Positions 22,096-63,229 of a stretch of 64,000 bases of DNA are shown one piece after another; position 1 is the first letter of the stretch; each line of letters starts with the position of its first letter. The stretch is taken from the NCBI RefSeq assembly GCF_009914755.1, contig NC_060927.1; one strand, 5' to 3'. Both the position numbers and the translations under genes were made by a program. The DNA is from the human T2T-CHM13v2.0 reference genome, Homo sapiens. The notes beneath the pieces are model-generated. The model searched no databases. It saw only the letters and a program-made list of their open reading frames with translations, and was not told the DNA's origin.

Positions 22096-24278
22096 CATAC
22101 ACATGACAATAGCATGTTATTTCAAAATTTAGAGTTTGTTCATCATGTGTTTAAAATACTTGCGTGAAACATGTTTTAATGCAAATGCACAATCTGCCTT
22201 CAGAATAAGTGTTGACTCTTATTTTCTTTCTGAGGATACACTTTTTATCTCAAAGATATTGATCTAAGCTGTCTGTTCCAAATCTCTCAGAAAACGGATA
22301 AATGAAAGTTTCATCACTGACTATTCATTTCATCCTCTGAACATTTATTTTTATTTTTAGAGGTATTTCTGCTTTATATCTTGGGTAACAGACATTTTAT
22401 TTTATGAGAACCACACTTCATTTAAGTAAAACGTTATATTTTGCATATATATTTATAATCTCTTCATATTCTTCTCATGTCTTTCTATTTCATATCAGTT
22501 GCCATAGTAAAATCTTCCTTCCAAGGAAATCTCAAATTTTACTACTATCAGCAGCCATCAATTTTACTGAATTTGAAATTATAAAGTATTCTAAAACATT
22601 CTTGACTAAAGTATTTTTATCTAGTGGTTTAATGGTAAGCCTGAAAAGGACTAATATGTATGATTTAAAGTAGGTGAAAACGAAATAAAGACATTTAAGT
22701 TCAGTTAAGGACATGAATTACAGAGAGTCTCTTTAAAATAAGAAAACCAACTGGCATACTTTTAATTTGAATCATTTAATTTGACAAACATTTGGCTTAT
22801 GCTGTTTTTATAAGGTCAGCTTGACAGGTTGATAAACTGTATCTCTTGAAAGGAGTTTTTTTGTTTTTAATCAGGGCATAAGAAAGCCCTCCTGTTTCCT
22901 TTCTCCTTTGTTTTGTGTATATTTCTAGTATAATCATCATGAACCTCTATTGCAGTTAGATACATGTATAAATCCCCCAGTAGAATTTAAATCTCTAGTA
23001 AAAGACTGTTTTAATCTTTGCCTCCCTGACAAATGTCCAACACATAATTCCTTACATATTGTCTACAACACTGTATGATGATGCAAATGTCATATGAAGG
23101 CACTAAATGTTAGCATCTCAGAAAGGAGTGATTTGCCTTGCACTTTTTACATTATTGATATGATTGAGTTTTGAGTTTTCTTCTATATATAACCTACATT
23201 TTCCAGGCTCTAGGTTAATTCGCAGACCTCACAAAACCCAAATTTAATTTGAAGATTTTAAGTATGCTTTGTTATAACACCCTTTTATGTAACGTTACTA
23301 GAAACGTTTTAATAAAAGTACAATTGTAGGACTATAACAAAGGGATAGCAATAAAGGAAGGTGTATGACTTAGTCAGATAAGACTTGCCATAGGGAAAAG
23401 TAGAGCAGCTTTAATATCCATACAGATGGATCGGAAACCAACAGTGAATTGAAAAATGCAAAGTTTTGCTCACAAGGTGACCTGGGAAAAATGCATTTGC
23501 AGGGGGTGAAGATTTTGCTGGTTTAATAATAAATAGGTATACATAAATAATTAATTTGTGACAGTTTTAATGACAACCCAGCCACAGGAGAAGACAAATC
23601 TACATATTGAAAGAAAGCAGTTAAAATGTTGACTTGCAGAATGACAGAGGTAAAGAGGATACATTTAAGTGGAGACAGGCAGCTTGTCTAAATATGGCTA
23701 ATATTAAATACAGGTGATTATAGCATTTGAAATTGAAATTAAAAATAATCTCTGATTCACTTATTTTAAAATTGCCAAGTCCCCTCAGCTGCATATTTCA
23801 CCAGGTGCTGGTGCAGTTGGAACAACAAGCATATCCAATGATTTAAAAATAACATTCACGGGTGTCACCTGATGTCACTCCAGATAAGAAATGATGTTCC
23901 CAATCAGAGAGAACACTCTCTAGTATTCATCTTAACACCTCCTAAACCTGTGCTACATATTTATGTCATGAATTTTAAAATAATCTTTTGGATATTGAAC
24001 ATATTAAATTAAGCTTTTTGAAAGTTGTAAACACAGACAAGAAATGGAAGACTTTCATTCTGGAAACTGTGTGTACAGAACTCCTTTTACATGATTGAGC
24101 TTAAAGATATTAAATATGCTGTGATTTGTTTTTCCTCCAAAATACTACAAACTGAGTTAAATATTAGGGTAGTATTCATGATTTCTTATTCTTCAAAAAG
24201 ATATTTAAGATCTACAATTTTAGGCTTCTCAAGTAGACAGCTTTTTAAATACGTTGGTTCAGATTTGAGGAAGGAAGA

Positions 24279-41800: not shown

Positions 41801-42664
41801 TCTGGTACATTGTGTCTTTGCTCTCATTGGTTTCAAAGAACATCTTTATTTCTGCCTTCATTTCATTATTTACGCAGTAGTCATTCAGGAGCAGGTTGTT
41901 CAGTTTCCATGTAGTTGTGTGGTTTTGAGTGAGTTTCTTAATCCTGATTCTAATTTGATTGCACTGTGGTCTAAGAGATGGTTGGTGTGATTTTTGTTCT
42001 TTTATATTTGCTGAGGAGTGTTTTACTTCCAATATGTGGTCAATTTTAAAATAAGTGCAATGTGGTGCTAAGAAGAATGTATATTCTGTTGATTTGGGGT
42101 GTAGAGTTCTGTAGATGACTATTAGGTCCACTTGGTCCAAAGCTGAGTTCAAGTCCTAAATATCCCTGTTACTTTTCTGTCTCGTTGATCTGTCTAATAT
42201 TGACAGTGGAGTGTTAAAATCTCCCACTATTATTGTGTGGGAGTCTAAGTCTTTTTGTAGGTCTCTAAGAACTTGCTTTATGGATCTCAGTGCTCCTGTA
42301 TAGGGTGCATATATATTTGAGACAGTTAGCTTTTCTTGTTGCTTTGATTCCTTTACCATTATGTAATGCCTTTCTTTGTCTCTTTTGACCTTTCTTGGTT
42401 TAAAGTCTGCCTTATCAGAGACTAGGATTGCAACCCCTGCTTTTTTTTTTTTTTTTTTTGATCTTCATTTGCTTGGTAAATCTTCCTCCATCCCTTTATT
42501 TTGAGCCTATGTATGTCTTTGCATGTGAGATGAGTCTCCTGAATACAGCACACTGATGGGTCTTGACTCTTTATCCAGTTTGCCATTCTGTGTCTTTTAA
42601 TTGGGGCATTTAGCCCATTTACATTTAAGGTTAATTTTGTTATGTGTGAATTTGATCCTGTCAT
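38809..42664 (-). pseudogene. L1 ORF2 (endonuclease/reverse transcriptase), frameshifted
   Basis: Fragments [54 protein letters not shown] and [23 protein letters not shown] lie in different frames. Confidence 0.93.
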
Positions 42665-42727
42665 TATGATACTAGCTGGTTATTTTTCCTGTTAGTTGAT
42701 GTAGTTTCTTCATAGTGTCGATGGTCT

Positions 42728-43430
42728 TTACAATTTAGCATGTTATTGCAGTGGCTGGTACCAGTTGTTCCTTTCCATGTTTAGTGCTTCCTTCAGGAGC
42801 TCCTGTAAGGCAGACCTGTTCGTGACAAAATCACTCAGGATTTGCTTGTCTGTAAAGGATTTTATTTCTCCTTCACTTATAAAGCTTAGTTTGGCTGGAT
42901 ATGAAATTCTGGGTTGAAAATTATTTTCTTTAAGAATGTTGAATATTGGCCCCCATTCTCTTCTGGCTTATAGAGTTTCTGCTGTTGTTCTTATGGGCTT
43001 CCCTTTGTGGGTAACCTGACCTTTCTCTCTGGCTGCACTTAACATTTTTTCCTTCATTTCAACCTTGGTGAATCTGATGATTATGTGCCTTGAGGTTGCT
43101 CTTTTTGAGGAATATCTTTGTGGTGTTCTCTGTATTTCCTCAACTTGAATGTTGGCCTGCCTTGCTAGGTTGGGTAAGTTCTCCTGGATAATATTCTGTA
43201 CAGCATTTTCCAAGTTGGTGCCATTCTCCCCGTCACTTTCAGGTACACCAATCAAATGTAGGTTTGGTCTTTTCACACAGTCCTGTATTTCGTGGAAGCT
43301 TTGTTCACTTCTTTTCACTCTTTTATCTCTAATCTTGTCTTCTTACTTTATTTCATTAAGTTAATCTTCAGTCACTGATAACCCTTCTTCTGCTTGATTG
43401 ATTTAACTATTGAAACTGTTTTCTCCCCAT
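42728..43430 (-). pseudogene. L1 ORF1, disrupted and internally deleted
   Basis: KRPNLHLIGVPESDGENGT..RHIIIRFTKVEMKEKML; span about 700 bp versus about 1 kb for an intact ORF1. Confidence 0.88.
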
Positions 43431-44127
43431 CTTTGTGGTTTTATCTACATTTGGTCTTTGATGTTGGTGACCTGTGGATAGGGATTTGGTGTGGACGTCC
43501 TTTTTGTTGATGTTGATGCTATTCCTTTCTGTTTGTTAGTTTTCTTTCTAACAGTCAGGCCCCTCAGCTGCAGGTCTGTTAGAGTTTGCTGGAGGCCCCC
43601 TCCACACTGTGTTTGCCTGGGTATCACCTGCAGAAGCTGCTACAGAACATCAACTATTGCTGCCTGATCCTTCCTCTGGAAGCTTTGTCATAGAGGTGCA
43701 CCCGCCAGTTGCCAGCTAGAGCTCTCCTGTATGAGGTGTCTGTCAGCCCCTACTGGGAGGTGTCTCCTAGCCAGTCTACACAGGGGTCAGGGACCCACTT
43801 GAGGAGGCAGTCTGTCCATTTTCATATCTTGAACACTGTGCTGGGAGAACCACTGCTCTCTTCAGAGCTGTCAGGGAGGGACATTTAAGTCTGCCGAAGC
43901 TTTGCCCACAGGTCCGCCTTTCCCCAGGTACTCTGTCCCAGGGAGATGGGGGTTTTATCTATACCTGACTGGGTCTGCTGCCTTTTGTTCAGAGATACCC
44001 TGCCCACAGAGGTGGAATCTAGAGAGGCAGTTGGCCTTCCTGAGCTGTGGTGGGCTCTGCCCAGTTTGAACTTCCTGGCAGCTTTATTTACACTGTGAGC
44101 ATAAAACTGCCTATTCAGGCCTCAGCA

Positions 44128-44478
44128 ATGGTGGACGACCCTCCCCCAACCAAGCTCGTGAATTCCAGGTCAATCTCAGACTGCTCTGCTAGCAGCAAGG
44201 ACTTCAAGCCAATGGATCTTAGCTTGCTAGGCTCGGTGGCCATGGGACCCGCTGAGCCAGGCACCAGAGGGAATCTCCTGGTATGCTGGTTGCGAAGACC
44301 ATGGGAAAAGTGCAGTATCTGGGCAGGATCCTACTGGTACAGTCTCTCACGGCTTCCCTTGGCTAGGAAAGGGAAATCTCCCGACCCCTTGTGCTTCCTG
44401 GGTGAGGTGACAGCCCGCCCTGCTTCAACTCGCCCTCGGTGGGCTGCACCTACTGTCCAACCAGTCCCAGTGAGATGA
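44128..44478 (+). other. L1 ORF0-like antisense ORF (116 aa) in the L1 5'UTR
   Basis: ATG at 44128 in gcaATGg context; MVDDPPPTKLVNSRSISDCSASS..GPAEPG..LLVCWLRRPWEKCSIWAG resembles primate L1 ORF0 as recalled (MAGAPPPASLPPCSLISDCCASN..GPSEPG); no internal stop. Confidence 0.65.
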
Positions 44479-44869
44479 ACCAGATACCTCAGTTGGAAAT
44501 GCAGAAATCACCTGCCTTCTGCATGGATATTGCTAGGAGCTGCAGACCAGAGCTGATCCTATTTGGCCATCTTGCTGGACCCTGACAAATGTTTTTAAAG
44601 GCAAAAAATCCTTTAAAAGAATTATATACATGTTTTGAGAGTATTGTCTTTGGCTACAAAGATTAATAACAAGGATTGATGCCAAGTCTGAAGATGGGCA
44701 GGTAATTGAGGGGCAGATACCCTAGCAAAAGTATTTTTGGTGTAAGATTGTCATGGCCTCAGGTGTACAAGTGTGAACAACCTTTCTTCCTGTCTTCATA
44801 GCCTTTCTTGGCTCCGTTTGTCAGGTTTTTTGTTTAACATTAATGACTACATTTTGATTCTGGCAACTT

Positions 44870-44969
44870 TGATATCTGTAAGATAACCTGTGTCATTACA
44901 CTGATATCTGTAAGATTACCTGTGCTATTAAACTGATATTTGTAAGATAACTTGTGTTATTAAACTGAT
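44870..44969. repeat. 32-bp minisatellite, about 3.1 copies
   Basis: Unit tgatatctgtaagataacctgtgt(c/t)attaaac starting at 44870, 44902 and 44934. Confidence 0.93.
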
Positions 44970-45853
44970 GAGAAAGACACGTGGGTCTCAGGATAAAATG
45001 TCCTTTCCCACATTGAACTCAGATCACTGACTCTAATGCTGGGAAATCAACTGACTGGCACTGGCAGGAATTAAACAGCAAAGATTCTCCCCTCCCTGGG
45101 CCCTGGTATGCTCTGATAAATGGCATATTTAAAAACCTACAGGATTTATTCACAGCAAGGAGTATATTATGAAGAATCTCAGCACAGGCATATGGTGGTA
45201 GACTTCAGATCTTTGGGTATTTGTCTTAAATACTGTAACTTTATTATTTGGATGGATGTGGATTCCTACATTATCAAACATGAAGGAATGAGAATACAAA
45301 ATGTATTATATAGCTAAGCCTAAATGACACTGTCTCAGATTATCTATGGTTCTTATCCCCTCCATTAGTGCAAGTAATCGAGTATTTGAATTTGAAAGTG
45401 CAACTTTATCTCATTGTTCCATTATAGGTAATAAAAGTGACCTGTGTGAGGATATTAGATTAGTGATTTTACTTAGTATTCACCTTATGCTTAGAAGGTG
45501 TGAAATTGTTAATTCGTTCAAATTAGGTCATTATCCAGTTGTGTAACAAATAGACTTGTGCTTAAAAAGCTTAACTAAGCAGGTGCATAGAGAAGCACCT
45601 CTATCAAATGCTTCAGGAGACCCTTTCTACTGCTGTTCTTTATTTTTACATCTCATTAACAACAGTATTAACTCTCAGATACTGCTTGTATAAGGAAAAT
45701 AGGGAGAAATTAAGTGTTCTGCATAATCTTCTTAAAATATCCTAAGTACAAGAAAGAGTTGTTTTTTTGTGTGTTTGTTTTCTTTTTAATAAGCAATAGC
45801 CTAGTGTCCTTTTGAACCTTCTCATTACTGACAGGTAGATATAGGAGGAAAAC

Positions 45854-46211
45854 TGTATGTTATTTTTCTAGGGCTGCCATAAGAAAATGCCACAAACTGG
45901 TTGGCTTACACGACAGACATTTATTTTCTCACAGTTTTGGGTGCTGGAAGTTGAAAATCGAAGTGTTGCATGTTTGTTTTTTTCTGGAAAAAAAAAAACT
46001 CTCTTGCCTTACAGATGGCTGCTTTCTCACTGTGTCCTGATATGGTCACCCTTGGCCTGCATATTGTCTGTGTCCTAAATCTCTTCTTCTTATGAAGACA
46101 CCAGTAATATTGAACTAGAACTTATATCTATTACCTCATTTTACCTTAATTACCTCTTTAAAGGCTCTATCTACAAATAGTCATATTCTGAGTGTTATTC
46201 AACCCATAACA
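45854..46211 (-). mobile_element. MLT1B-like MaLR LTR
   Basis: tgtat..ctagggctgccataa..catttattttctcacagtt..cttatgaagacaccagt..taattacctctttaaagg..cccataaca. Confidence 0.85.
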
Positions 46212-46691
46212 CTGAGACAATTTTTTTCATTGCTATGATTTATGTTTTTTCTTTGTGTGCAAATTCTCCCAAATTTATAAGAGGATGAAGCTTTGTAGTG
46301 AAAGCAGCTATGACATTGCTATGTGGCCTTTTTACATTTTCATAGCTACTAGTTTTTCTAAGTTTCAAAGAGCTCTGTGTAGTACATTTAAGATTGGAGG
46401 TAATCAAGAAGAGAACAAATAAGAAAAAAAAACAGAAGAGGATGGATATAAGAGAAAAAAGGAAAACTAGGTTCAGAGGTGGGCAAACACATGCCAGGAT
46501 ATCTAAGATATTATAGTCAATATTTCTCCTCTTGAGCCACATAAAGGACACTGAGGAAGAATATTACTTTCTGGAGCTTTATTGCCCAGTTCTAAAAATA
46601 AAAGAGATATAGATGGATAGTTTTTGTTACTTTTTGAGTCTGGGGCTCAAAAAACAAATAAGTGGGGTAGGGGGAGTATTATTAAGTTTCC

Positions 46692-47002
<311 letters not shown>

Positions 47003-47122
47003 TCAAGTTTCTAAAGGTGATAAAACTTAAGAGATTTGTTCTCTAAAGGAGAACATCTAATCAGATTCTCAGTTCTATGCTCCTTGGCCCCTTTTTTTGT
47101 GTTATTTTGTTCGATTTGAAGA

Positions 47123-47152
<30 letters not shown>
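47123..47152. repeat. (ATT)n microsatellite
   Basis: About 10 units seen directly. Confidence 0.9.
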
Positions 47153-47153
<1 letters not shown>

Positions 47154-47446
47154 TAGTGATTTTGTTCAGTTAAAGGGTGAAATGTTCTCTTATTGGTCAA
47201 TGTATTGCAAAGCTATTAATAAATGTTACTCTGAGCTAGTTTTAAAACTGCCAGGGAAAGATCCTTGGGGACAACATGATCTTGAGCATTTCAGAGTTAT
47301 TTCTAGAAAATTCTGAAGTAGGACTTTACATGGAAGATTATATATCTCATACAAATATACATACCTCTTTAAAAAAGTTTTCTCTGAGTTCTTATTTGTT
47401 CCTGGCTAATCAGATCTTCTTTTTGTACTCCTTTGTAAACTTTTAC

Positions 47447-48549
47447 TTAAAAATACAAAGAAAAGACAAGCCACAGACTGAGAAAATATTTTCAGAGCAC
47501 CTATATCACAGTGGACTTGTATGAGAGTATGAAATATAAAAAGAACACTTCAAATGTAACAATAAGAAGACAAACAACCCAATTAAAAATGTGCAAAAGA
47601 TATGAATAGATATCTCACCAAAAAAGCTTTACTGATGGCGAATAAACATGTGAAAAAAAACACCCTATATTATTAGGGAATTGCAAATTGAAACAGCAAT
47701 GAGACACTCCTACACACTTCTCAGAATGGCTAAAGGCTAACAAAGATGTGGAGCAATACTGACTCTCATTCATGGATGTTAAGAGTGCAAAATGGTATAG
47801 TCACTTTGTAAGACAGTTTGATTGTGTCTTACAAATCTAAACATAGGTTTAGTATATAATTGGATGACCACACATGCAGATATTTACTTAGAAGAGTTGA
47901 AAATTTATGTCCATACAAAAACCTACATGCTAATATTTATAGTAACTTTATTCATAATTGCCAAAAATGGGAAGAAACAAATACCTCAATAGTTGAATGT
48001 ATAAGCAAATGAGGTAATTCATATAGTGGAATATTACTTATTTATAAGAGGAAATTAGCTATGAAGCCAAATAAAGACATGGGAAAACCTTAACTGCATA
48101 TAACTGTATGAAAGAAACCAGTCTAAAGAAGCAAATTTCTGTGTGATTGTAACTTTATGGCATTTTGGAAAAGGCAATACTACTGAGACGGTGAAAGATC
48201 AGTAGTTGCCAGAGGTTCAGTGGGAAGGAGGGAGGGATAAATAGGTGGCGTACAGGGTGGTTTTAGGTCAGTGAAATTATTCTGTGTAACACCAAAATGA
48301 TGGTGATATTATGCATTTGTCAGAACCCATAGGCCTTTATAATACAGTCAACCCTAAGGTAACCATGGACCTTAACTAATAATATTGTACCAACATTGAC
48401 TCATCCATCGTAACTCATGTGCCACACTAATGCAAAATGTTAATAAGGGAAACTATGTGAGGGGAGGTGGATTATATGAAACATCTCTACTTTCTGGGTC
48501 AGTTTGCAGAAAACTTAAAGCTATTCTAAAAAAGTAAAATATATTAAAA
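47447..48549 (+). mobile_element. L1MC-type 3' end (ORF2 C-terminus plus 3'UTR)
   Basis: aaaagacaagccacagactgagaaaatatt, caacccaattaaaaatg, ttttggaaaaggcaa..gatcagtagttgccagagg, ccacactaatgcaaaatgttaata. Confidence 0.85.
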
Positions 48550-48948
48550 TAGTTAGCAAAAGTAACTTGATTTAGACTCACTTTTATAACCAATGATGAA
48601 ATATTTTCATGGCTTTATGTATATTAGACAGCGTAGATGAGATTTAATCAATTTTATTGAAATTGATAAGCAGCAGAACGATTTATTTTTCTTTTGTTTA
48701 TAATGGTTTAAATTCTCAATGGTTTAGAAAGATTCTTTGTGAAAAATATTGCAGATTATAATGTTAATCCTGACTTGTTTCACAAAATACATTGTTAGCC
48801 AAATTAGAGTATATGAGTAGTCTTTAGATTAAAAAAATAGTTCAAAGTATTGATTCATAGTAAAAATCTTTATCCACAAAATGCATATTTAATTCTACAA
48901 ATATAGTATGAATTATTTCCATTCTTATCAAACCAATATTAGCTAGCT

Positions 48949-49203
48949 TAGCTAACATTTATTAAGCACTTATTTATGTCAAGCACTCTTCTGAAGTTCT
49001 ACATGGATTATCTCAGTTAATTCTCAAAATATGTCACTTGATTAGGTACTATTATTTTCCCTGTTTTGCAGATAGGTTACCTGAGTTATACAGAAATTAG
49101 TAAATTTCCCAAGGTTCCATAGATGGTAAATTGTGAAGCAAGGACTTGAACTTTGATTATAGATCCTCTTTACTTGATATTTAACCACTATATCATGCTA
49201 CCT
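48949..49203 (-). mobile_element. MIR (near full length)
   Basis: agctaacatttattaagcactta..taggtactattatt..ttttgcagat..ttcccaaggt..ttaaccacta. Confidence 0.8.
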
Positions 49204-49302
49204 TCCACCAGCTACCATTTCAACTTATTTTTGTCCCCAATTAAAACACTTAAACGTTTATAATATTGAGGTAAAATGTATATAAATGGAAATATTAATT
49301 AA

Positions 49303-49531
49303 ACAGCATAATATAGTATAGATTTTATAGAATTTGAAGTTAGTACCTTACTTTGAATTTCTGTATCTGCCTAAACAAACCTCCTAATCTCTCTAAATCT
49401 CAATTTCCTCAGCTGTAAAAAGGGAATAACTATCATCTCCATTTCACTAACGGCTTGTGAGAATTAGGTGAAGTAACATATAGGTTAAACATCTTGTAAA
49501 CCATGAAACTGTAAAATATAAAACTATCATT
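49303..49531 (+). mobile_element. MIR relic, head-to-head with the preceding MIR
   Basis: taatctctctaaatctcaatttcctcagctgtaaaagggaataa..ttgtgagaattag. Confidence 0.7.
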
Positions 49532-49712
49532 TTTATGTATGTATAAATATGTAGTCTTCTGCCTTGAGAATTGCCAACTGCTGTATATCAAGAATCAAAT
49601 CTTCTCCATATGTTGTAAATATCCTTAAGTGCGAAAAATAGACACGTGGTAAATACTGGTCAGTGATGATGATTCATATTATCTACAGTTTTATTATACA
49701 ATGTAGAACTTT

Positions 49713-49769
49713 TCTCCAGAGTAGTAATTTCTCTCTCCAGAGTAGTAGTACTCTCCAGAGTAGTAGTAG
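49713..49769. repeat. Triplicated TCTCCAGAGTAGTA
   Basis: Copies at 49713, 49734 and 49752. Confidence 0.9.
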
Positions 49770-52700
49770 TTTTTTGCAATTGCAAACATATTCACAAACA
49801 TGTTAACACCCTGTTAACTCCATGGATGGAGAGTGAGGTCTTCTGTATAAACAAATGTATAAAACATAAGAGTAGAACATAATACATTAACACAAAAGCT
49901 GCTATGAACTAACAGAGCTCTTTGTATGTGTGCTGAACACTGGGTGTGGTGGTCATGTTGGCATTTTGTGTCTCAAACCTCAGTCCTCTGGTTTGCATTA
50001 TTAGTGACCTCTCTCTCTCTCTTTCTCTCTCTGTCTCTCTCACCCCTGACTTTTGTTCTCTGACTCTTCCTCTGTCATCCTCCTTAATCTACAATCTGTT
50101 AAGGGAGATGACAGCCAAATCTCTAAACGGAAAAAAATTTTTTGGATTTATTTGAGATAAAACCTTATAGAATATTTCATGTAGATGGTTTTTTGTGACA
50201 TTTTCACTGTAATAACACTGAATATCTCTTGATCACAATTATTTGCTATATTGCCTTTGATACTGCCTAACCTTATTGAAGTTTGAGTAACATTTGACTT
50301 CCTGGGACCTCTATGCCTTGGAGTTTTTGAGTGATAAATAAATTTGTACTGCAAACCTAAATACTTATTACTTATGAATTATATCGGAATGGAATATATA
50401 TTAGTATAAACATTCACTTCACATCCTCTTAGAATTGATTATAAATGTTCATGCTGTATTTTGATGCAAGAATTAATTGGTAGAGTTACAAATTATAAAA
50501 CATAAAATTGAAATGCTATTAAATGCACTGTATTTGATTTTATCTTAATTTTATAATTTACAAAGATATGTATAGACATTGTTTTGTTAATCTAGATTTT
50601 ATCATAATCTCATTAACTTTCTCAAACTTTGTCTTAAAACTTTAATTGAAATTTCATTACAAGTATATAGTATTTTGAAGTGTCGTCTCCCATTTATGAT
50701 AAGATCTATCTCTAAGGTTATTTTTATGTCCTCTTATAGATTTGTCTTTTCTTCTTTAATTTTGCTTTTTTACCTCTGTAATGCTTTCTTTATGTTTTCA
50801 GTTAAACTATGTGGTTTGTAATTAATGGTGAAAAATAGTATAATGGATTTTTAAAAGTCAATCCTGTAGGTAACCACACTAAAGCTCTTATTTTACGCTG
50901 TATATTTTGTTGAAGCATCCTGTAGATTATTAGGGTATATGGTCTGTATCTGTTGTTATCAGCTCTGTAACTACATCAGACTGTGTTGCTACCCTTTTAT
51001 TAACCAGTGGAGCCCTGGCTGGCCTAGGAAAGGTTCTGTTATGCCGCCTCACAATTTTTTCCTGGATGGATGATGTTATTCTCAGGACACTGTTGGACAG
51101 GCCAAAAAAGTACTTCTCACGGTTGCCCCAGCAAAACATCCATCCGTGCACTAGCTCCCTTCTAATTCTCTTGCTAGTCCTTTCCACAAAGGATAGAAAA
51201 CTTCCTTCCCTCAGGTGTTCATATATACATATATATATGAACATGTATATATGTAGAATTATATGCATAAAATTGGATTATTAATCTTTATCATTTTTGT
51301 GTAATAGCATCTCTTGGATTGTAATTGGAAGAAGGATTAAGACGTCAATTCTAGCCATAACTAGCAATACAAAATGAGAGTAATAATTGAGATAAACCTT
51401 CTTTGCTAGAGAGTTAATTTGGTGTCAAAGTTATACTTGATATGATTTCAATTGCATATTTTTAATGGTTTATTTTTAAAGAATAGGAAGACTCAAAATT
51501 AATTGCAAAGGATGTAATTAGATATAGTTATTTGCCATTTAAGAATACTTATTAACTTTTGTGATGAAAGATAATGATGTGATTTAAATATTTTTTAAGG
51601 AAATCATTTTTATATAGTTCACATGATTTGGTGACATGTGAATGAAATATTTGTATACATAACAAGCTATGCTACCATTGGGCCTTCTCTACCAACCATC
51701 ATTGGCTCCTTCTTCACATACGTATTAATGGATTTCAAAGTATTAATGGATTCTGTATGAGAAAAGTCATTGATAGGGCTCGTATAAATGGAAGGGTGAC
51801 CTCAACTAGAGAGAAATGCTTAGCAGGAAGGGCTGTAGTAACAGAAAGGACAGACAATTTCTTGTCTTAGGAGGTGAACTTCTGCTATGACTCAGTGATT
51901 AAAACTGTATACCAGACTCTGTGCACCTCCAGATACTAGCTTAGAATCTGAATCTCAACAAGGCTCTCAGCAAAGTTTGTTGAATGAATAACAATAATTG
52001 TGGATATTTATTAAACCATATTTAAATAAGGGCTTTTATGACCACATTGAATATAAGGCAATTGAGGCTTTGATCTATTAAGTAATTTGCTCAAGGCCAC
52101 ACATATACCAAAGGCAAGCGATTAGTTTTCAAAGTTAGGCCAGCCAAACTTCAGAGTTAAAGCATTAACTACTCAATGAGACAGATAATAGGAGGGACAG
52201 AATAAGGGAAATGAAGGATTGTTGGAAGCATGAGATTAACTTTTAGTCATAATTATAAATATCTATTAGGTTCAAAATTACCTAGATGTGTCAGAGGCAT
52301 GTATTCAGATAATATGCTGTTTCAGTATCTTGTGTGTTACAACTCACCTCAAAAAAAAAATACCTAATTTAATCATGGAGAATAATCCTAATTTTACAGG
52401 TAAAGATATGGCGATGTTTGTCTCTGTTGTCTCACAGTGATGACAACTTTTCATTCTATATATAATGAAAAATATTATTTCCAAAAACTTGATAAGTTTT
52501 TTATAATTATATAACTAACATATTACTTAGAATATATAAATACATAAATATAAATTTAAATTGATTTTAATATAATACAAAAGCAAACACTGAATTATGT
52601 TGTATGGATAGTACAAAAATTCATAGAATAATTACATATCATCTTAATTCTTCATATTTTCTTTTTATATGGTTACTCTAAAGATTGTGCTTCTTAAAAT

Positions 52701-53904
52701 ATAAAGTTGTCTTCAAGTATCAAGGCATCAAGTTTTATACTTTAATATGCAGTGATTTTTACATTACTAGTTCAAGATACATGTTGGTAGTTCTTGAAAA
52801 TCCTGATATTTAATTATCAATGTAGTTATTTGGAAAGTAAGTAATGTTATATAATTAATTGCCATTTTTTCTCTTAAAATTGAATTTCAATGTTTTTATT
52901 TGATCATATATTTTTTGGAAAGTATCTTGGTTTCTAATATCAGCCCCATGATTTGCTACTATTGTTGTTTAGTTTTTAATTAAAATATAGAAATAATAAC
53001 AATAACACTTACTTGGTAGTATGAATAACACCTACTTGATATTGAGAATGTACAGCATCAGTGCTTTAAAAATCTTTTCATCTGGCTTGGTACATCATGT
53101 TGAAGAACTATGGCTATTTTTCTTTAAAAGCTGTAAATTTTAATTTGCAATTAAATATTTTACTTTTATATTGTTTTAATTTCTAAAGGAGAGGAAATCC
53201 TGGAATTCTCTTTAAGAACGTATCAGTGTGCCATATTTACATTCTATAAAGGAATGGTATACCATTTTTAATGAGTACATATTAAACTAATAATTTCTGT
53301 AGCTTATTTTTCACTTCTTATGTCAACTTTTCTATTTTTCACTCCAAATCATTGACATCATTCTGTTTACGGGAAGGAAAAGCAATTGTATAGAAAATAA
53401 TCTGGAAAGCAAACAGTGTGGTCTCAGACCACTGAAGGATAGCAACTTCTCCTGGTTCAGCTCCCAGAGGTTAGAAAAGTAAAGATATATCTTCCCTTGG
53501 GATAATCTGTCTTTCCTCTGAGCTCTTTGAGTGTAGGGAAGGGCCCAAAGGGAAAAGTCAACTAGCCAGATCAACAGCTTAGATGACAGTGAACAAATGC
53601 TTGACTAGAACGTTTGTTCTGATGAAGTAATTCAATAGAATATTTAGTGTCATGGGCTTGGAATATTAAGATACTTTGTTCAGGTAGGTCAGTGATTATT
53701 TACTGACAGACTAAGTTACATAGGAAATAATGACCTTCCTAAAATCTTAGTTATGTAAAATCCCCAAATACAATTTACTTTGCAGAATTGTGATACGAAT
53801 ATACATATCAAAGTACAAAGCAATAGGGAAAGACCCTTTTAGGTCAAGATGCTCCTGTGTATAAAATGAAATATTAAACTTTTTTTTTTTATTCAAGGGA
53901 TACA

Positions 53905-53950
53905 AACTAACCATTATCTTTCTTCTCTTTCTCTTTCCTTTTAGGTGAGT
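53905..53950 (+). promoter_or_regulatory. Candidate recursive splice site: branch point, polypyrimidine tract, TAG|GTGAGT
   Basis: aactaac (branch A at 53910, about -35), uninterrupted pyrimidines 53917-53942, AG at 53943-53944 immediately followed by GTGAGT at 53945-53950; no other AG between 53898 and 53942. Confidence 0.8.
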
Positions 53951-54017
53951 AACTGAAGGTTAAAGCCAGAATTCCTGGATTTGAAGTGTTATATGCTTTT
54001 TTATTAGTGTCCTGTGG
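53945..54017 (+). other. Candidate 73-nt RS-exon (poison/cryptic exon)
   Basis: Bounded by the acceptor at 53944 and the donor TGG|GTAAGT (54018-54023); length not a multiple of 3; stops in all three frames in gtgagtaactga. Confidence 0.72.
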
Positions 54018-54336
54018 GTAAGTAAAGAAAAAGACTTGGCTTAAACACCAGACTGGATGCTGAATCATGCATAGATATAAATTAATCAGATGTGGCCCTT
54101 TATCACTCAATGTCATGATCAAATATTTAAAACTACTCAATGTTAGACACAAGCATGGAGGAGGAATTTTTTTTCTAATTCTTAGTTATTATAATTGTGC
54201 CATTTAGAACTAGCACATAAGTAAATTAGGGTGCTTCACACTTATATGCCGATGTCTTTTGACAGAGCTGTTGCCAGTGGATATACTTTAGATGGCAGAC
54301 TGTGTGAAAAACATAAATGAAGATATAATATTGGTT

Positions 54337-61451: not shown

Positions 61452-63229
61452 TAAAATAATTCATTTATTGTCATTGGTACTGAGGTATATTGAATAAAAT
61501 TATTAATACCAAATGGCACAAGTTAAAATGAGGGTTATTTAGCATTTCTTATTTGATATGAAAAAAGATTCCAGGATAATTGTAAAATATAAATTTGTCT
61601 CATTCTAGGAATAGTCTCTTTAATAATTCAGAGTCTGTAAGGAGTTAACCAGATTTCTAGTACATAGATTTCAAAAACACAGTTATAGTGAAACAGGCTA
61701 GGCAACTGATCATTTAGAATAAACTGTGAAGAACATACAAGTGTTCAATTCTTTATTATCAGTGGGTAAAAATCTCAGGAAAAATAACTTTCTGCCAAAT
61801 TACTTCCACTTTAAATTGCCTTAGAGTTCTTGAATTTGTTTGCTGTGTATATTTTGTTGGTGTTTGTGTGAGAGATTTCTTATTGTTACAGATTTTCTTT
61901 GGAGTTTTATGGATATAGTACTTTATACCTGTAATGATTTTTACTTATATAATTTAACTTACATTTTAATCTCTATATGATATATTGTTGTTTAATCAGA
62001 TCTGACTTTTTATTACCTAAGACAATGAAATTAAATGGTTAAGATATAAAAAAAATTAGGAGCTTATTGTTACAATTGGCATTTGACATCATACTAAATA
62101 TAATAAAATAAATGTCATGTCTAAAAACACAGCTAACTTAAATCATACTCTGAAAAGGGCATAGTGTAGAACATTAAACTGTATTAAGTTCACTGTAATT
62201 CACATTAACACAAAATACTGAAATACAGTAAGTGTGGTGTTATGTTAACTTTTCCTAGATCTCACTGGAGTAAAACAAAATATTTACTCTAACATTAGTG
62301 ATGAGGAATTTAGTTGCTCAAAGTATGAGAAAAGATACATGAAAGATAATCTTTTTTCTATTTTCCGATAAAGCAGCATAACTGTTGTTTTAAGGAGTTT
62401 TAACTAAGAGAAGCACACTATAATTTACAGAGGACTTTAGGACTCTTAGAGTTTGTTCTTACATTCAACAAATATTTGGAATTATAAGATATTGCAAAAG
62501 GATTTGTCTTTTCATAAAGGCATTTAAATATCCAAAATGATATACTTCAGGTAAAGATATATTTCTATAAATGATTATAAATTAGGTGAGTAATCCTGAT
62601 TGTATAATATAATTCCCTAATTATTTAGGAGCTGCGAATTGACTTGGAATAGTATGAATTATGTTTGTTTTCGTTTTTCACTTTGCTTTTGACAAAGTCA
62701 CGTTTCTAGAATGTTTGCTGATGCTGATTTAGCCACTTTATGCTCTTCCTGTGTCATGATAGGTAACTGAAAATGAATGGAAATGTATTCCTAATTAATT
62801 TAAATTCAACAAATACTTGCCAGGCATGTATTATAAAACTATACTGGGTACAACAGAGATGCTAGTTCAGTGTCTTATGTAAAACAGATATAAGATTGTT
62901 GAATATATATGAATAATTTATCATTGGTTTTATTCATTAGAATTATTAAATTCAACCAAAAATGCATATCCATATAATGTTACAAAAATTCATCATCTTC
63001 TTTCAGCATTTGAAAAATCCTCACTCAGATAGATTGTGCATCATATTTTCACCTATGACTTGTTTATGAACTACATTATTTTTCTCAGCAAAAAAACCTG
63101 AAGTATCATTTAAAATGATATTTAAAATATTTGGTATTAATTATAACTTTATGTTTGAATCAAATAAAAATAATATGGCATTGCATGCAGCACGATTGCT
63201 TTTTGAATTTTCTCTGATATACCTTATGA

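What the first reader, a model, noticed from the sequence alone, without database searches (positions are those of the whole stretch)
53905..54023. Recursive splice site (AG|GTGAGT) with a defined 73-nt RS-exon
Seen in sequence: a near-ideal branch point (AACTAAC, A at about -35), an AG-free zone, 26 uninterrupted pyrimidines and TAG followed directly by the consensus donor GTGAGT. A second consensus donor (TGG|GTAAGT) lies 73 nt downstream, all in non-repeat DNA. Established: a 3' splice site fused to a GURAG 5' splice site is the recursive-splicing or ratchet-point signature, first shown in Drosophila Ubx. In vertebrates (Sibley et al. 2015; Duff et al. 2015) such sites occur in very long introns, mostly of neuronal genes, and are recognised by exon definition of a downstream RS-exon whose own donor competes with the regenerated donor. 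Inference: the host intron is removed in steps at 53944/53945, leaving no trace in the mature mRNA. I cannot tell whether this is an already published site or a new one.
Basis: partly seen in the sequence, partly recalled or inferred. Interest (0 to 1): 0.92.

Follow-up and report, generated by a model that had tools for sequence, protein, structure and literature searches.

The report
Known CADM2 recursive splice site RS1

Summary
These are AACTAAC at 53905-53911, 26 unbroken pyrimidines at 53917-53942, TAG|GTGAGT with the junction at 53944/53945, and TGG|GTAAGT 73 nt downstream.

The bare 9-mer YAGGTRAGT is no more frequent than chance: 2 found, 1.84 expected. The composite is rare. It is the only one of 16 AGGTRAG sites in the window with a full pyrimidine tract and a downstream consensus donor. 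It is one of only 10 Y20-AGGTRAGT sites reported in the whole assembly.

The site is CADM2 RS1, hg19 chr3:85288106 and hg38 chr3:85238956/7. Anchoring window 53944 to the hg19 coordinate puts 3 of 4 other published AGGT positions exactly on AGGT in the window. The published recursive exon RE1 is 73 bp, lies 279 kb from exon 1 and carries a stop codon. All three points match what I read.

The literature reports a saw-tooth RNA profile, exon 1-RE1 junctions, phastCons 1 and a 3' splice site score of 14.09. CRISPR deletion of the site abolishes the junction.

Verdict: interpretation supported, already known, low novelty.

The parts
53905..53911 (+). Candidate branch-point sequence AACTAAC (branch A at 53910)
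   Evidence: Read. Use as a branch point is inferred from the consensus only. No lariat data for CADM2 were found in the Hoppe 2023 supplements.
53917..53942 (+). Polypyrimidine tract, 26 unbroken pyrimidines
   Evidence: run = 26, 20/20 Y. Zhang 2018 S2 Table gives this site a 3' splice site strength of 14.09. Positions 53923-53941 score as a weak TTCTCT tandem.
53943..53944 (+). AG of the RS1 acceptor (3' splice site). Published as hg19 chr3:85288106 and hg38 chr3:85238956.
   Evidence: Sequence. Coordinate anchoring: 3 of 4 other published AGGT positions fall exactly on AGGT in the window. Papers.
53945..53950 (+). GTGAGT. After exon 1 (which ends ...CAAG) is joined here, it forms the regenerated donor AAG|GTGAGT.
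   Evidence: for the window. The exon 1 end AAG|gtaatc at G000:C3:85024684 was read.
53945..54017 (+). Recursive exon RE1 (RS-exon), 73 nt
   Evidence: length 73. Boone et al. state 'RE1, 73 bp'.
53950..53952 (+). TAA stop codon, in frame with the CADM2 reading frame coming from exon 1 (premature termination codon)
   Evidence: exon 1 coding part plus RE1 translates to MIWKRSAVLRFYSVCGLLLQGE*; stops in all three frames of RE1. Boone et al. say the REs contain stop codons.
54018..54023 (+). Native donor of RE1, TGG|GTAAGT
   Evidence: Boone et al. report RE1-RE2 and RE1-exon 2 junctions, which shows this donor can be used.

Best explanation
Window 53944/53945 is RS1, the first of the two recursive splice sites (RS1, RS2) that Boone et al. 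describe in the ~767-kb first intron of human CADM2.

Proposed mechanism:
1. The pyrimidine tract and AG at 53917-53944, together with the native donor at 54018, let the spliceosome define the 73-nt recursive exon RE1.
2. Exon 1, which ends ...CAAG about 279 kb upstream, is spliced to 53945. This removes the first 279 kb of the intron.
3. The new junction reads AAG|GTGAGT, a full match to the donor consensus MAG|GTRAGT. It competes with the native RE1 donor TGG|GTAAGT, which matches 7 of 9 consensus positions.
4. If the regenerated donor is used, RE1 leaves together with the next intron segment and is absent from the mRNA.
5. If the native donor is used, RE1 stays and places TAA in frame after two codons. 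That transcript should be a target of nonsense-mediated decay.

What is shown and what is inferred. The sequence anatomy and the in-frame stop are shown here. The exon 1-RE1 junction, the saw-tooth profile, loss of the junction on deletion and use of the RE1 donor are shown in print. The branch point, the relative donor strengths and the role of exon definition at this particular site are inferred.
For: Sequence:
- All motifs are at the stated places.
- The site is unique among 16 AGGTRAG sites in the window and among 14 strong YAG acceptor-like sites.
- It is one of 10 Y20-AGGTRAGT matches reported in the assembly.

Identity with the published site:
- With window 53944 set to hg19 85288106, Zhang 2018's other putative AGGT sites at 85276791, 85279589 and 85279688 fall exactly on AGGT at 42629, 45427 and 45526. 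The fourth, 85257949, is 17 nt off. AGGT density is 0.0039 per nt.
- Exon 1 ends at G000:C3:85024684, 279,260 nt before the site. The same distance is 279,287 nt in hg19. Two anchors near exon 1 show the same +27 and +30 nt shift.
- RE1 is 73 nt, as published.
- RS2, with a 42-nt exon as published, sits at C3:85576902.

Published experiments:
- Zhang 2018 tables list 3' splice site score 14.09 and phastCons 1. The site is among the candidate RS sites and among those with a significant saw-tooth (p = 4e-4).
- The 2026 preprint lists chr3:85238957 as a finalist, non-exonic, with coverage columns 6340 and 6552.
- Boone 2025 reports a saw-tooth with break points at RS1 and RS2. By qPCR the exon 1-RE1 junction fell by 44-47% in heterozygous deletion or inversion lines and by 99% in the homozygous ~500-bp (599 bp) deletion. 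CADM2 expression fell by 23% in homozygotes.
- Mouse Cadm2 RS1 intermediates were detected by RT-PCR. Rat RS1 deletion ablated the junction.
- The general mechanism is as described by Blazquez 2018.

In-frame stop.
Against: - The bare 9-mer is at chance frequency in the window (2 found, 1.84 expected).
- Boone et al. call exon 1-RE1 junction reads 'rare' in total RNA-seq. The Zhang 2018 row shows only 4 and 4 in its last two count columns, whose headings I did not see.
- Homozygous loss of the site lowers expression by only 23%. The intron can therefore still be removed without RS1.
- RE1's own donor is used in some transcripts, so in Boone's words 'RE1 is not always recursive'.
- In Table S3 of the 2026 preprint the site is flagged for Zhang 2018 but not for Sibley 2015, Hoppe 2023 or Wan 2021.
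- The Hoppe 2023 lariat supplements hold no CADM2 entry, so I saw no lariat or branch-point evidence.
- I could not test conservation myself because no other vertebrate genome is on hand.
- Donor strengths were compared only by counting consensus matches, not with MaxEntScan.
Confidence: 0.96

Rival explanations
1. The element is mainly an ordinary 'poison' cassette exon. On this view the 73-nt exon is spliced in through its own donor, the in-frame TAA sends those transcripts to nonsense-mediated decay, and re-splicing at the regenerated donor is a minor route.
For: RE1-containing assembled transcripts and RE1-RE2 and RE1-exon 2 junctions are reported. The native donor GGTAAGT is itself a near-consensus site. 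The stop is in frame.
Against: The 2026 preprint classes the site as non-exonic. Deleting the site lowers CADM2 expression rather than raising it, which is not what loss of a poison exon predicts. The saw-tooth profile breaks at RS1 and flattens when the site is deleted. The regenerated donor matches 9/9 consensus positions, against 7/9 for the native one.
Confidence: 0.03
2. The element is a chance juxtaposition of splice-like motifs in a very large intron, with no role in CADM2 processing.
For: YAGGTRAGT is at chance frequency in the window. A second TAGGTGAGT at 62583 has no pyrimidine tract (10/20) and no downstream donor, which shows that such 9-mers do arise idly.
Against: The composite is unique in the window and has 10 reported matches in the assembly. 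Published junction reads, saw-tooth profile, phastCons 1 and CRISPR ablation all concern this nucleotide.
Confidence: 0.01

Closest known systems
Human CADM2 RS1 / recursive exon RE1 (hg38 chr3:85238956/7; Zhang et al. 2018 PLoS Genet; Boone et al. 2025 bioRxiv; attributed by Boone et al. to Sibley et al. 2015)
   Same: It is the same nucleotide. The evidence is the coordinate anchoring, the distance from exon 1, the 73-bp exon and the stop codon.
   Different: Nothing differs, except that the window is the T2T-CHM13 copy. Its exon 1-to-RS1 distance is 27 nt shorter than in hg19.
Human CADM2 RS2 / RE2 (hg38 chr3:85511857)
   Same: Same intron and same architecture. In CHM13 I read ...ttctgttttag|GTAAGC, then a 42-nt exon, then AAG|GTAAAA at C3:85576902. 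Boone et al. give RE2 as 42 bp.
   Different: [quoted passage not shown] The 2026 preprint classes it 'mutually_exclusive_exonic', while RS1 is 'nonexonic'. Its pyrimidine tract is weaker (17/20).
Drosophila ratchet points (Ubx; Duff et al. 2015)
   Same: A juxtaposed acceptor and donor (AG|GT) that lets a long intron be removed in steps. Ubx is named as the first case in Zhang 2018.
   Different: The fly process is described as zero-nucleotide exon splicing (title seen). The vertebrate sites, this one included, are described as recognised through a downstream RS-exon with its own donor. I read no fly paper in full.

Membership tests
Vertebrate recursive splice site with RS-exon (Sibley 2015 / Blazquez 2018 type) | 3' splice site AG directly followed by GT, so that a 5' splice site is regenerated after the first splicing step | tested here: met
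   TAG|GTGAGT at 53942-53950. Joined to the exon 1 end it gives AAG|GTGAGT, 9/9 of the MAG|GTRAGT consensus. The consensus itself is recalled.
Vertebrate recursive splice site with RS-exon (Sibley 2015 / Blazquez 2018 type) | Strong acceptor: polypyrimidine tract, AG-free zone and a branch-point-like sequence | tested here: met
   26-nt pyrimidine run, 45 nt free of AG, AACTAAC at -40 to -34. Published 3' splice site score 14.09. Branch point use not shown.
Vertebrate recursive splice site with RS-exon (Sibley 2015 / Blazquez 2018 type) | Lies in a very long intron, on the sense strand of a long gene expressed in neurons | tested here: met
   The hub annotation places the window inside CADM2 on the + strand with no exon of the selected transcript. 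Exon 1 ends 279,260 nt upstream. The intron is given as 767 kb and the gene as neuronally expressed by Boone et al..
Vertebrate recursive splice site with RS-exon (Sibley 2015 / Blazquez 2018 type) | Downstream RS-exon ending in its own donor | tested here: met
   73-nt interval ending TGG|GTAAGT. RE1 is 73 bp in print.
Vertebrate recursive splice site with RS-exon (Sibley 2015 / Blazquez 2018 type) | RS-exon carries a premature stop codon if retained | tested here: met
   Exon 1 plus RE1 reads ...LLLQGE*. Stated by Boone et al..
Vertebrate recursive splice site with RS-exon (Sibley 2015 / Blazquez 2018 type) | Regenerated donor stronger than the RS-exon's native donor | tested here: inconclusive
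   By consensus count it is 9/9 against 7/9, which agrees with Boone et al.'s statement. No MaxEntScan or experimental competition was run here, and the native donor has GTAAGTA, a long U1 match.
Vertebrate recursive splice site with RS-exon (Sibley 2015 / Blazquez 2018 type) | Junction reads joining the upstream exon to the site, and a saw-tooth RNA profile | not testable with these tools
   No RNA data are on hand. In print: qPCR and RNA-seq junctions and the saw-tooth profile, a saw-tooth p of 4e-4, coverage columns 6340 and 6552.
Vertebrate recursive splice site with RS-exon (Sibley 2015 / Blazquez 2018 type) | Conservation of the AG|GT across vertebrates | not testable with these tools
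   No other vertebrate genome is held. In print: phastCons 1, mouse Cadm2 RS1 intermediates by RT-PCR, a rat RS1 site whose deletion ablates the junction. I did not verify orthology of the rodent sites myself.

The most novel reading that the evidence does not exclude
Y20-AGGTRAGT has only 10 reported matches in the assembly, against 48 for the reversed pattern, and one of the 10 is a proven recursive site. The remaining nine loci could therefore be enriched for recursive sites that are not yet described. Separately, the choice between recursion and RE1 inclusion may not be set by donor strength alone. Both donors are near consensus, and the branch point has never been mapped.
Probability: 0.15. 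Interest if true: 0.3.

Novelty: already known. Interest (0 to 1): 0.1.

Why it matters
The site matters biologically. Boone et al. link rare deletions that remove it to ADHD and related traits. They also show that ablating it lowers CADM2 expression in human induced neurons and changes behaviour in rats. All of that is in print, so this report adds no discovery. What it adds is a check that a reader working from sequence alone can recognise a true recursive splice site, and a sequence-level confirmation of the site in the T2T-CHM13 assembly.

Tried and rejected
- Sibley et al. 2015 (PMC4471124) is not held. I know its content only through other papers' words.
- A first title search failed on term length. 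I repeated it with shorter terms.
- A full-text search for a 19-nt string across the junction found 0 papers. I therefore found no printed sequence to compare, and proved identity by coordinates instead.
- The Hoppe 2023 lariat supplements hold no CADM2 entry and none of the three coordinates I searched. No branch-point evidence was found.
- The supplements of the Boone preprint (Tables S3 and S6, Figs S5 and S6, with coordinates, primers and the RE1 sequence) are closed and could not be seen. They would show the RE1 sequence directly.
- The second TAGGTGAGT at 62583 was considered as another recursive site and rejected. It has 10/20 pyrimidines, a run of 2, and no downstream GTRAGT within 300 nt.
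- Exon 2 was sought at the position predicted from hg38 but was not identified in the 1.1 kb fetched. It was not needed for the verdict.

Full report
**Observation.**
- AACTAAC lies at 53905-53911.
- No AG occurs from there to the acceptor.
- A run of 26 pyrimidines spans 53917-53942.
- TAG at 53942-53944 abuts GTGAGT at 53945-53950.
- A second donor, TGG|GTAAGT, has its GT at 54018.
- The enclosed interval 53945-54017 is 73 nt.

**Is it more than chance?**
- The 9-mer YAGGTRAGT alone is not. The window has 2 matches on both strands, against 1.84 expected from dinucleotide-preserving shuffles. The other match, at 62583, has no pyrimidine tract.
- The composite is. Among 16 AGGTRAG sites on both strands, only this one has 20/20 upstream pyrimidines, a run of 26, and a GTRAGT donor within 300 nt.
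- Among 14 YAG sites with at least 18/20 upstream pyrimidines, it is the only one followed by GT.
- 5 of 7991 AG dinucleotides are followed by GTRAGT, so about 0.009 such sites are expected per window.
- Over the whole assembly, Y20-AGGTRAGT has 10 reported matches, against 48 for the same pattern read backwards. The tool warns that its counts are lower bounds.
- The 119-nt stretch is single-copy in the assembly and in the window. TRF reports only a weak TTCTCT x3.3 array inside the pyrimidine tract.

**Identity.** The hub annotation places the window in CADM2 on the + strand. A literature search for 'recursive splicing' and 'CADM2' found 12 papers, of which 9 were listed.
- Boone et al. 2025 (bioRxiv 10.1101/2025.08.14.666599; I read the abstract, sections 3, 6, 10, 29 and 35, and found passages) place CADM2 RS1 at hg38 chr3:85238956/85238957 and exon 1's end at 84959669. 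They state 'RE1, 73 bp; RE2, 42 bp'. They describe a 279-kb exon-1-to-RS1 segment and a premature stop in the recursive exon.
- Zhang et al. 2018 (PMC6110456; found passages plus supplementary tables S1-S3) list the site at hg19 chr3:85288106, 279,287 nt from the upstream splice site. They give a 3' splice site score of 14.09 and phastCons 1. The site appears among the candidate sites and among those with a significant saw-tooth (permutation p = 4e-4).

To tie these coordinates to the window I used Zhang's S1 list of putative AGGT sites in the same intron.
- With window 53944 set equal to hg19 85288106, the sites 85276791, 85279589 and 85279688 predict window positions 42629, 45427 and 45526. 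Each is exactly an AGGT.
- The fourth site in range, 85257949, has its nearest AGGT 17 nt away.
- AGGT density on this strand is 0.0039 per nt, so three exact hits are not a coincidence.

The assembly proved to be searchable, so I fetched the exon 1 region.
- Exon 1 ends ...CTGCTACAAG|gtaatc at G000:C3:85024684.
- That is 279,260 nt before the site, 27 nt less than in hg19.
- Two of Zhang's anchors near exon 1 show the same shift, +27 and +30. The difference is therefore small indels between the assemblies.
- At the place predicted for RS2 I found ...ttctgttttag|GTAAGC, a 42-nt interval, then AAG|GTAAAA. This matches the published RE2 length.

**Mechanism.** Blazquez et al. 2018 (PMC6224609, found passages) describe the general scheme. 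An RS-exon is defined and spliced to the preceding exon, which creates a recursive 5' splice site. The RS-exon is skipped if that site is used and included if its own donor is used.

At this site the parts fit that scheme.
- Exon 1 ends in AAG, so the regenerated donor is AAG|GTGAGT. It matches all nine positions of MAG|GTRAGT (consensus recalled).
- The native RE1 donor TGG|GTAAGT matches seven of nine.
- This agrees with Boone et al.'s statement that the native donor is the weaker one. I could not run MaxEntScan, so I rate the point inconclusive.
- Exon 1 contributes 61 coding nucleotides. Adding RE1 gives MIWKRSAVLRFYSVCGLLLQGE followed by a stop. The TAA at 53950-53952 is therefore in frame, as the published model requires.

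**Published experimental support.**
- The saw-tooth profile has break points at RS1 and RS2.
- By qPCR the exon 1-RE1 junction fell by 44-47% in heterozygous deletion or inversion lines and by 99% in the homozygous ~500-bp (599 bp) deletion.
- The first saw-tooth segment flattened when the site was deleted.
- CADM2 expression fell by 23% in homozygotes.
- The 2026 preprint (PMC13622621; found passages and supplementary file parts 123 and 127) lists chr3:85238957 as a finalist, non-exonic, with coverage columns 6340 and 6552.
- In mouse, Cadm2 RS1 intermediates were detected by RT-PCR (PMC8797253, found passages).
- In rat, deleting the apparent RS1 ablated the junction.

**Results that cut the other way.**
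- Junction reads are called rare by Boone et al..
- The Zhang 2018 row shows only 4 and 4 in its last two count columns, whose headings I did not see.
- Loss of the site reduces expression by only 23%, so recursion here is helpful but not required.
- RE1's own donor is used in some transcripts.
- Table S3 of the 2026 preprint flags the site for Zhang 2018 but not for Sibley 2015, Hoppe 2023 or Wan 2021. It does flag 84959669, the exon 1 end, for Sibley.
- Sibley et al. 2015 is not held. I therefore cannot confirm from what I saw that their table lists this nucleotide. The attribution to them rests on Boone et al. and on the mouse paper's phrase 'three known RS sites in Hs6st3 and Cadm2'.
- The Hoppe 2023 supplements contain no CADM2 entry, so the AACTAAC branch point remains an inference.
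- I could not examine conservation directly.

**Rivals.**
- A plain poison exon is contradicted by the direction of the expression change on deletion and by the saw-tooth data.
- A chance motif is contradicted by the composite rarity and by the published experiments.

**Comparison and novelty.** The element is not merely like a known system. It is the known CADM2 RS1/RE1.
- Duff et al. 2015 concerns Drosophila.
- RE1 does leave traces in some transcripts.
- Recursion is not obligatory.

Novelty: already known. Interest as a scan finding is low, although the site itself is medically relevant.

Noticed in passing
window 45427 and 45526 (also 42629 and about 23804): Zhang 2018's S1 Table lists these AGGT positions as 'putative' RS sites. 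Their 3' splice site scores are 10.18, 7.31, 6.32 and 6.52, and their phastCons values are 0.997, 1, 0.59 and 1. 45427 and 45526 lie 99 nt apart in a block about 8.4 kb upstream of RS1 that the table scores as highly conserved (sequence). The two CADM2 rows I saw in the junction-supported S2 list were both for RS1; two further CADM2 occurrences in that file were not shown. The block could be a conserved non-coding element rather than a splice site.
   Followed up: partly
G000 genome-wide: C3:120059651(-), C4:172553049(+), C5:40843546(-), C7:112042166(-), C12:107696818(+), C14:86919379(-), C16:74896152(-), C17:42455283(-), C21:26158834(+): These are the nine other exact matches to Y20-AGGTRAGT in the assembly. 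The total of 10 is about five times fewer than the 48 matches of the reversed control pattern. I did not determine whether any of them lies in a long intron or is a known recursive site, or whether the depletion reflects selection against accidental strong acceptor-donor fusions.
   Followed up: no
window 62583-62591: A second TAGGTGAGT on the + strand. It has only 10/20 upstream pyrimidines and no GTRAGT within 300 nt downstream. It looks like a chance occurrence.
   Followed up: yes
PMC13622621 supplementary Tables S1-S3, CADM2 rows: The 2026 preprint lists two further CADM2 sites, hg38 85041579 and 85377429, with low coverage (195/198 and 18/30). Both lie outside this window. Its Sibley column flags the exon 1 end (84959669) instead of RS1, which looks like a coordinate-convention mismatch in that overlap table.
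   Followed up: no
G000:C3:85024684 to 85303944: The exon 1-to-RS1 distance is 279,260 nt in T2T-CHM13 and 279,287 nt in hg19. The net difference is 27 nt. Most of the shift lies between window 23804 and 42629 and further upstream: offsets are 0 at 42629-53944, +17 at 23804, and +27 to +30 near exon 1.
   Followed up: partly
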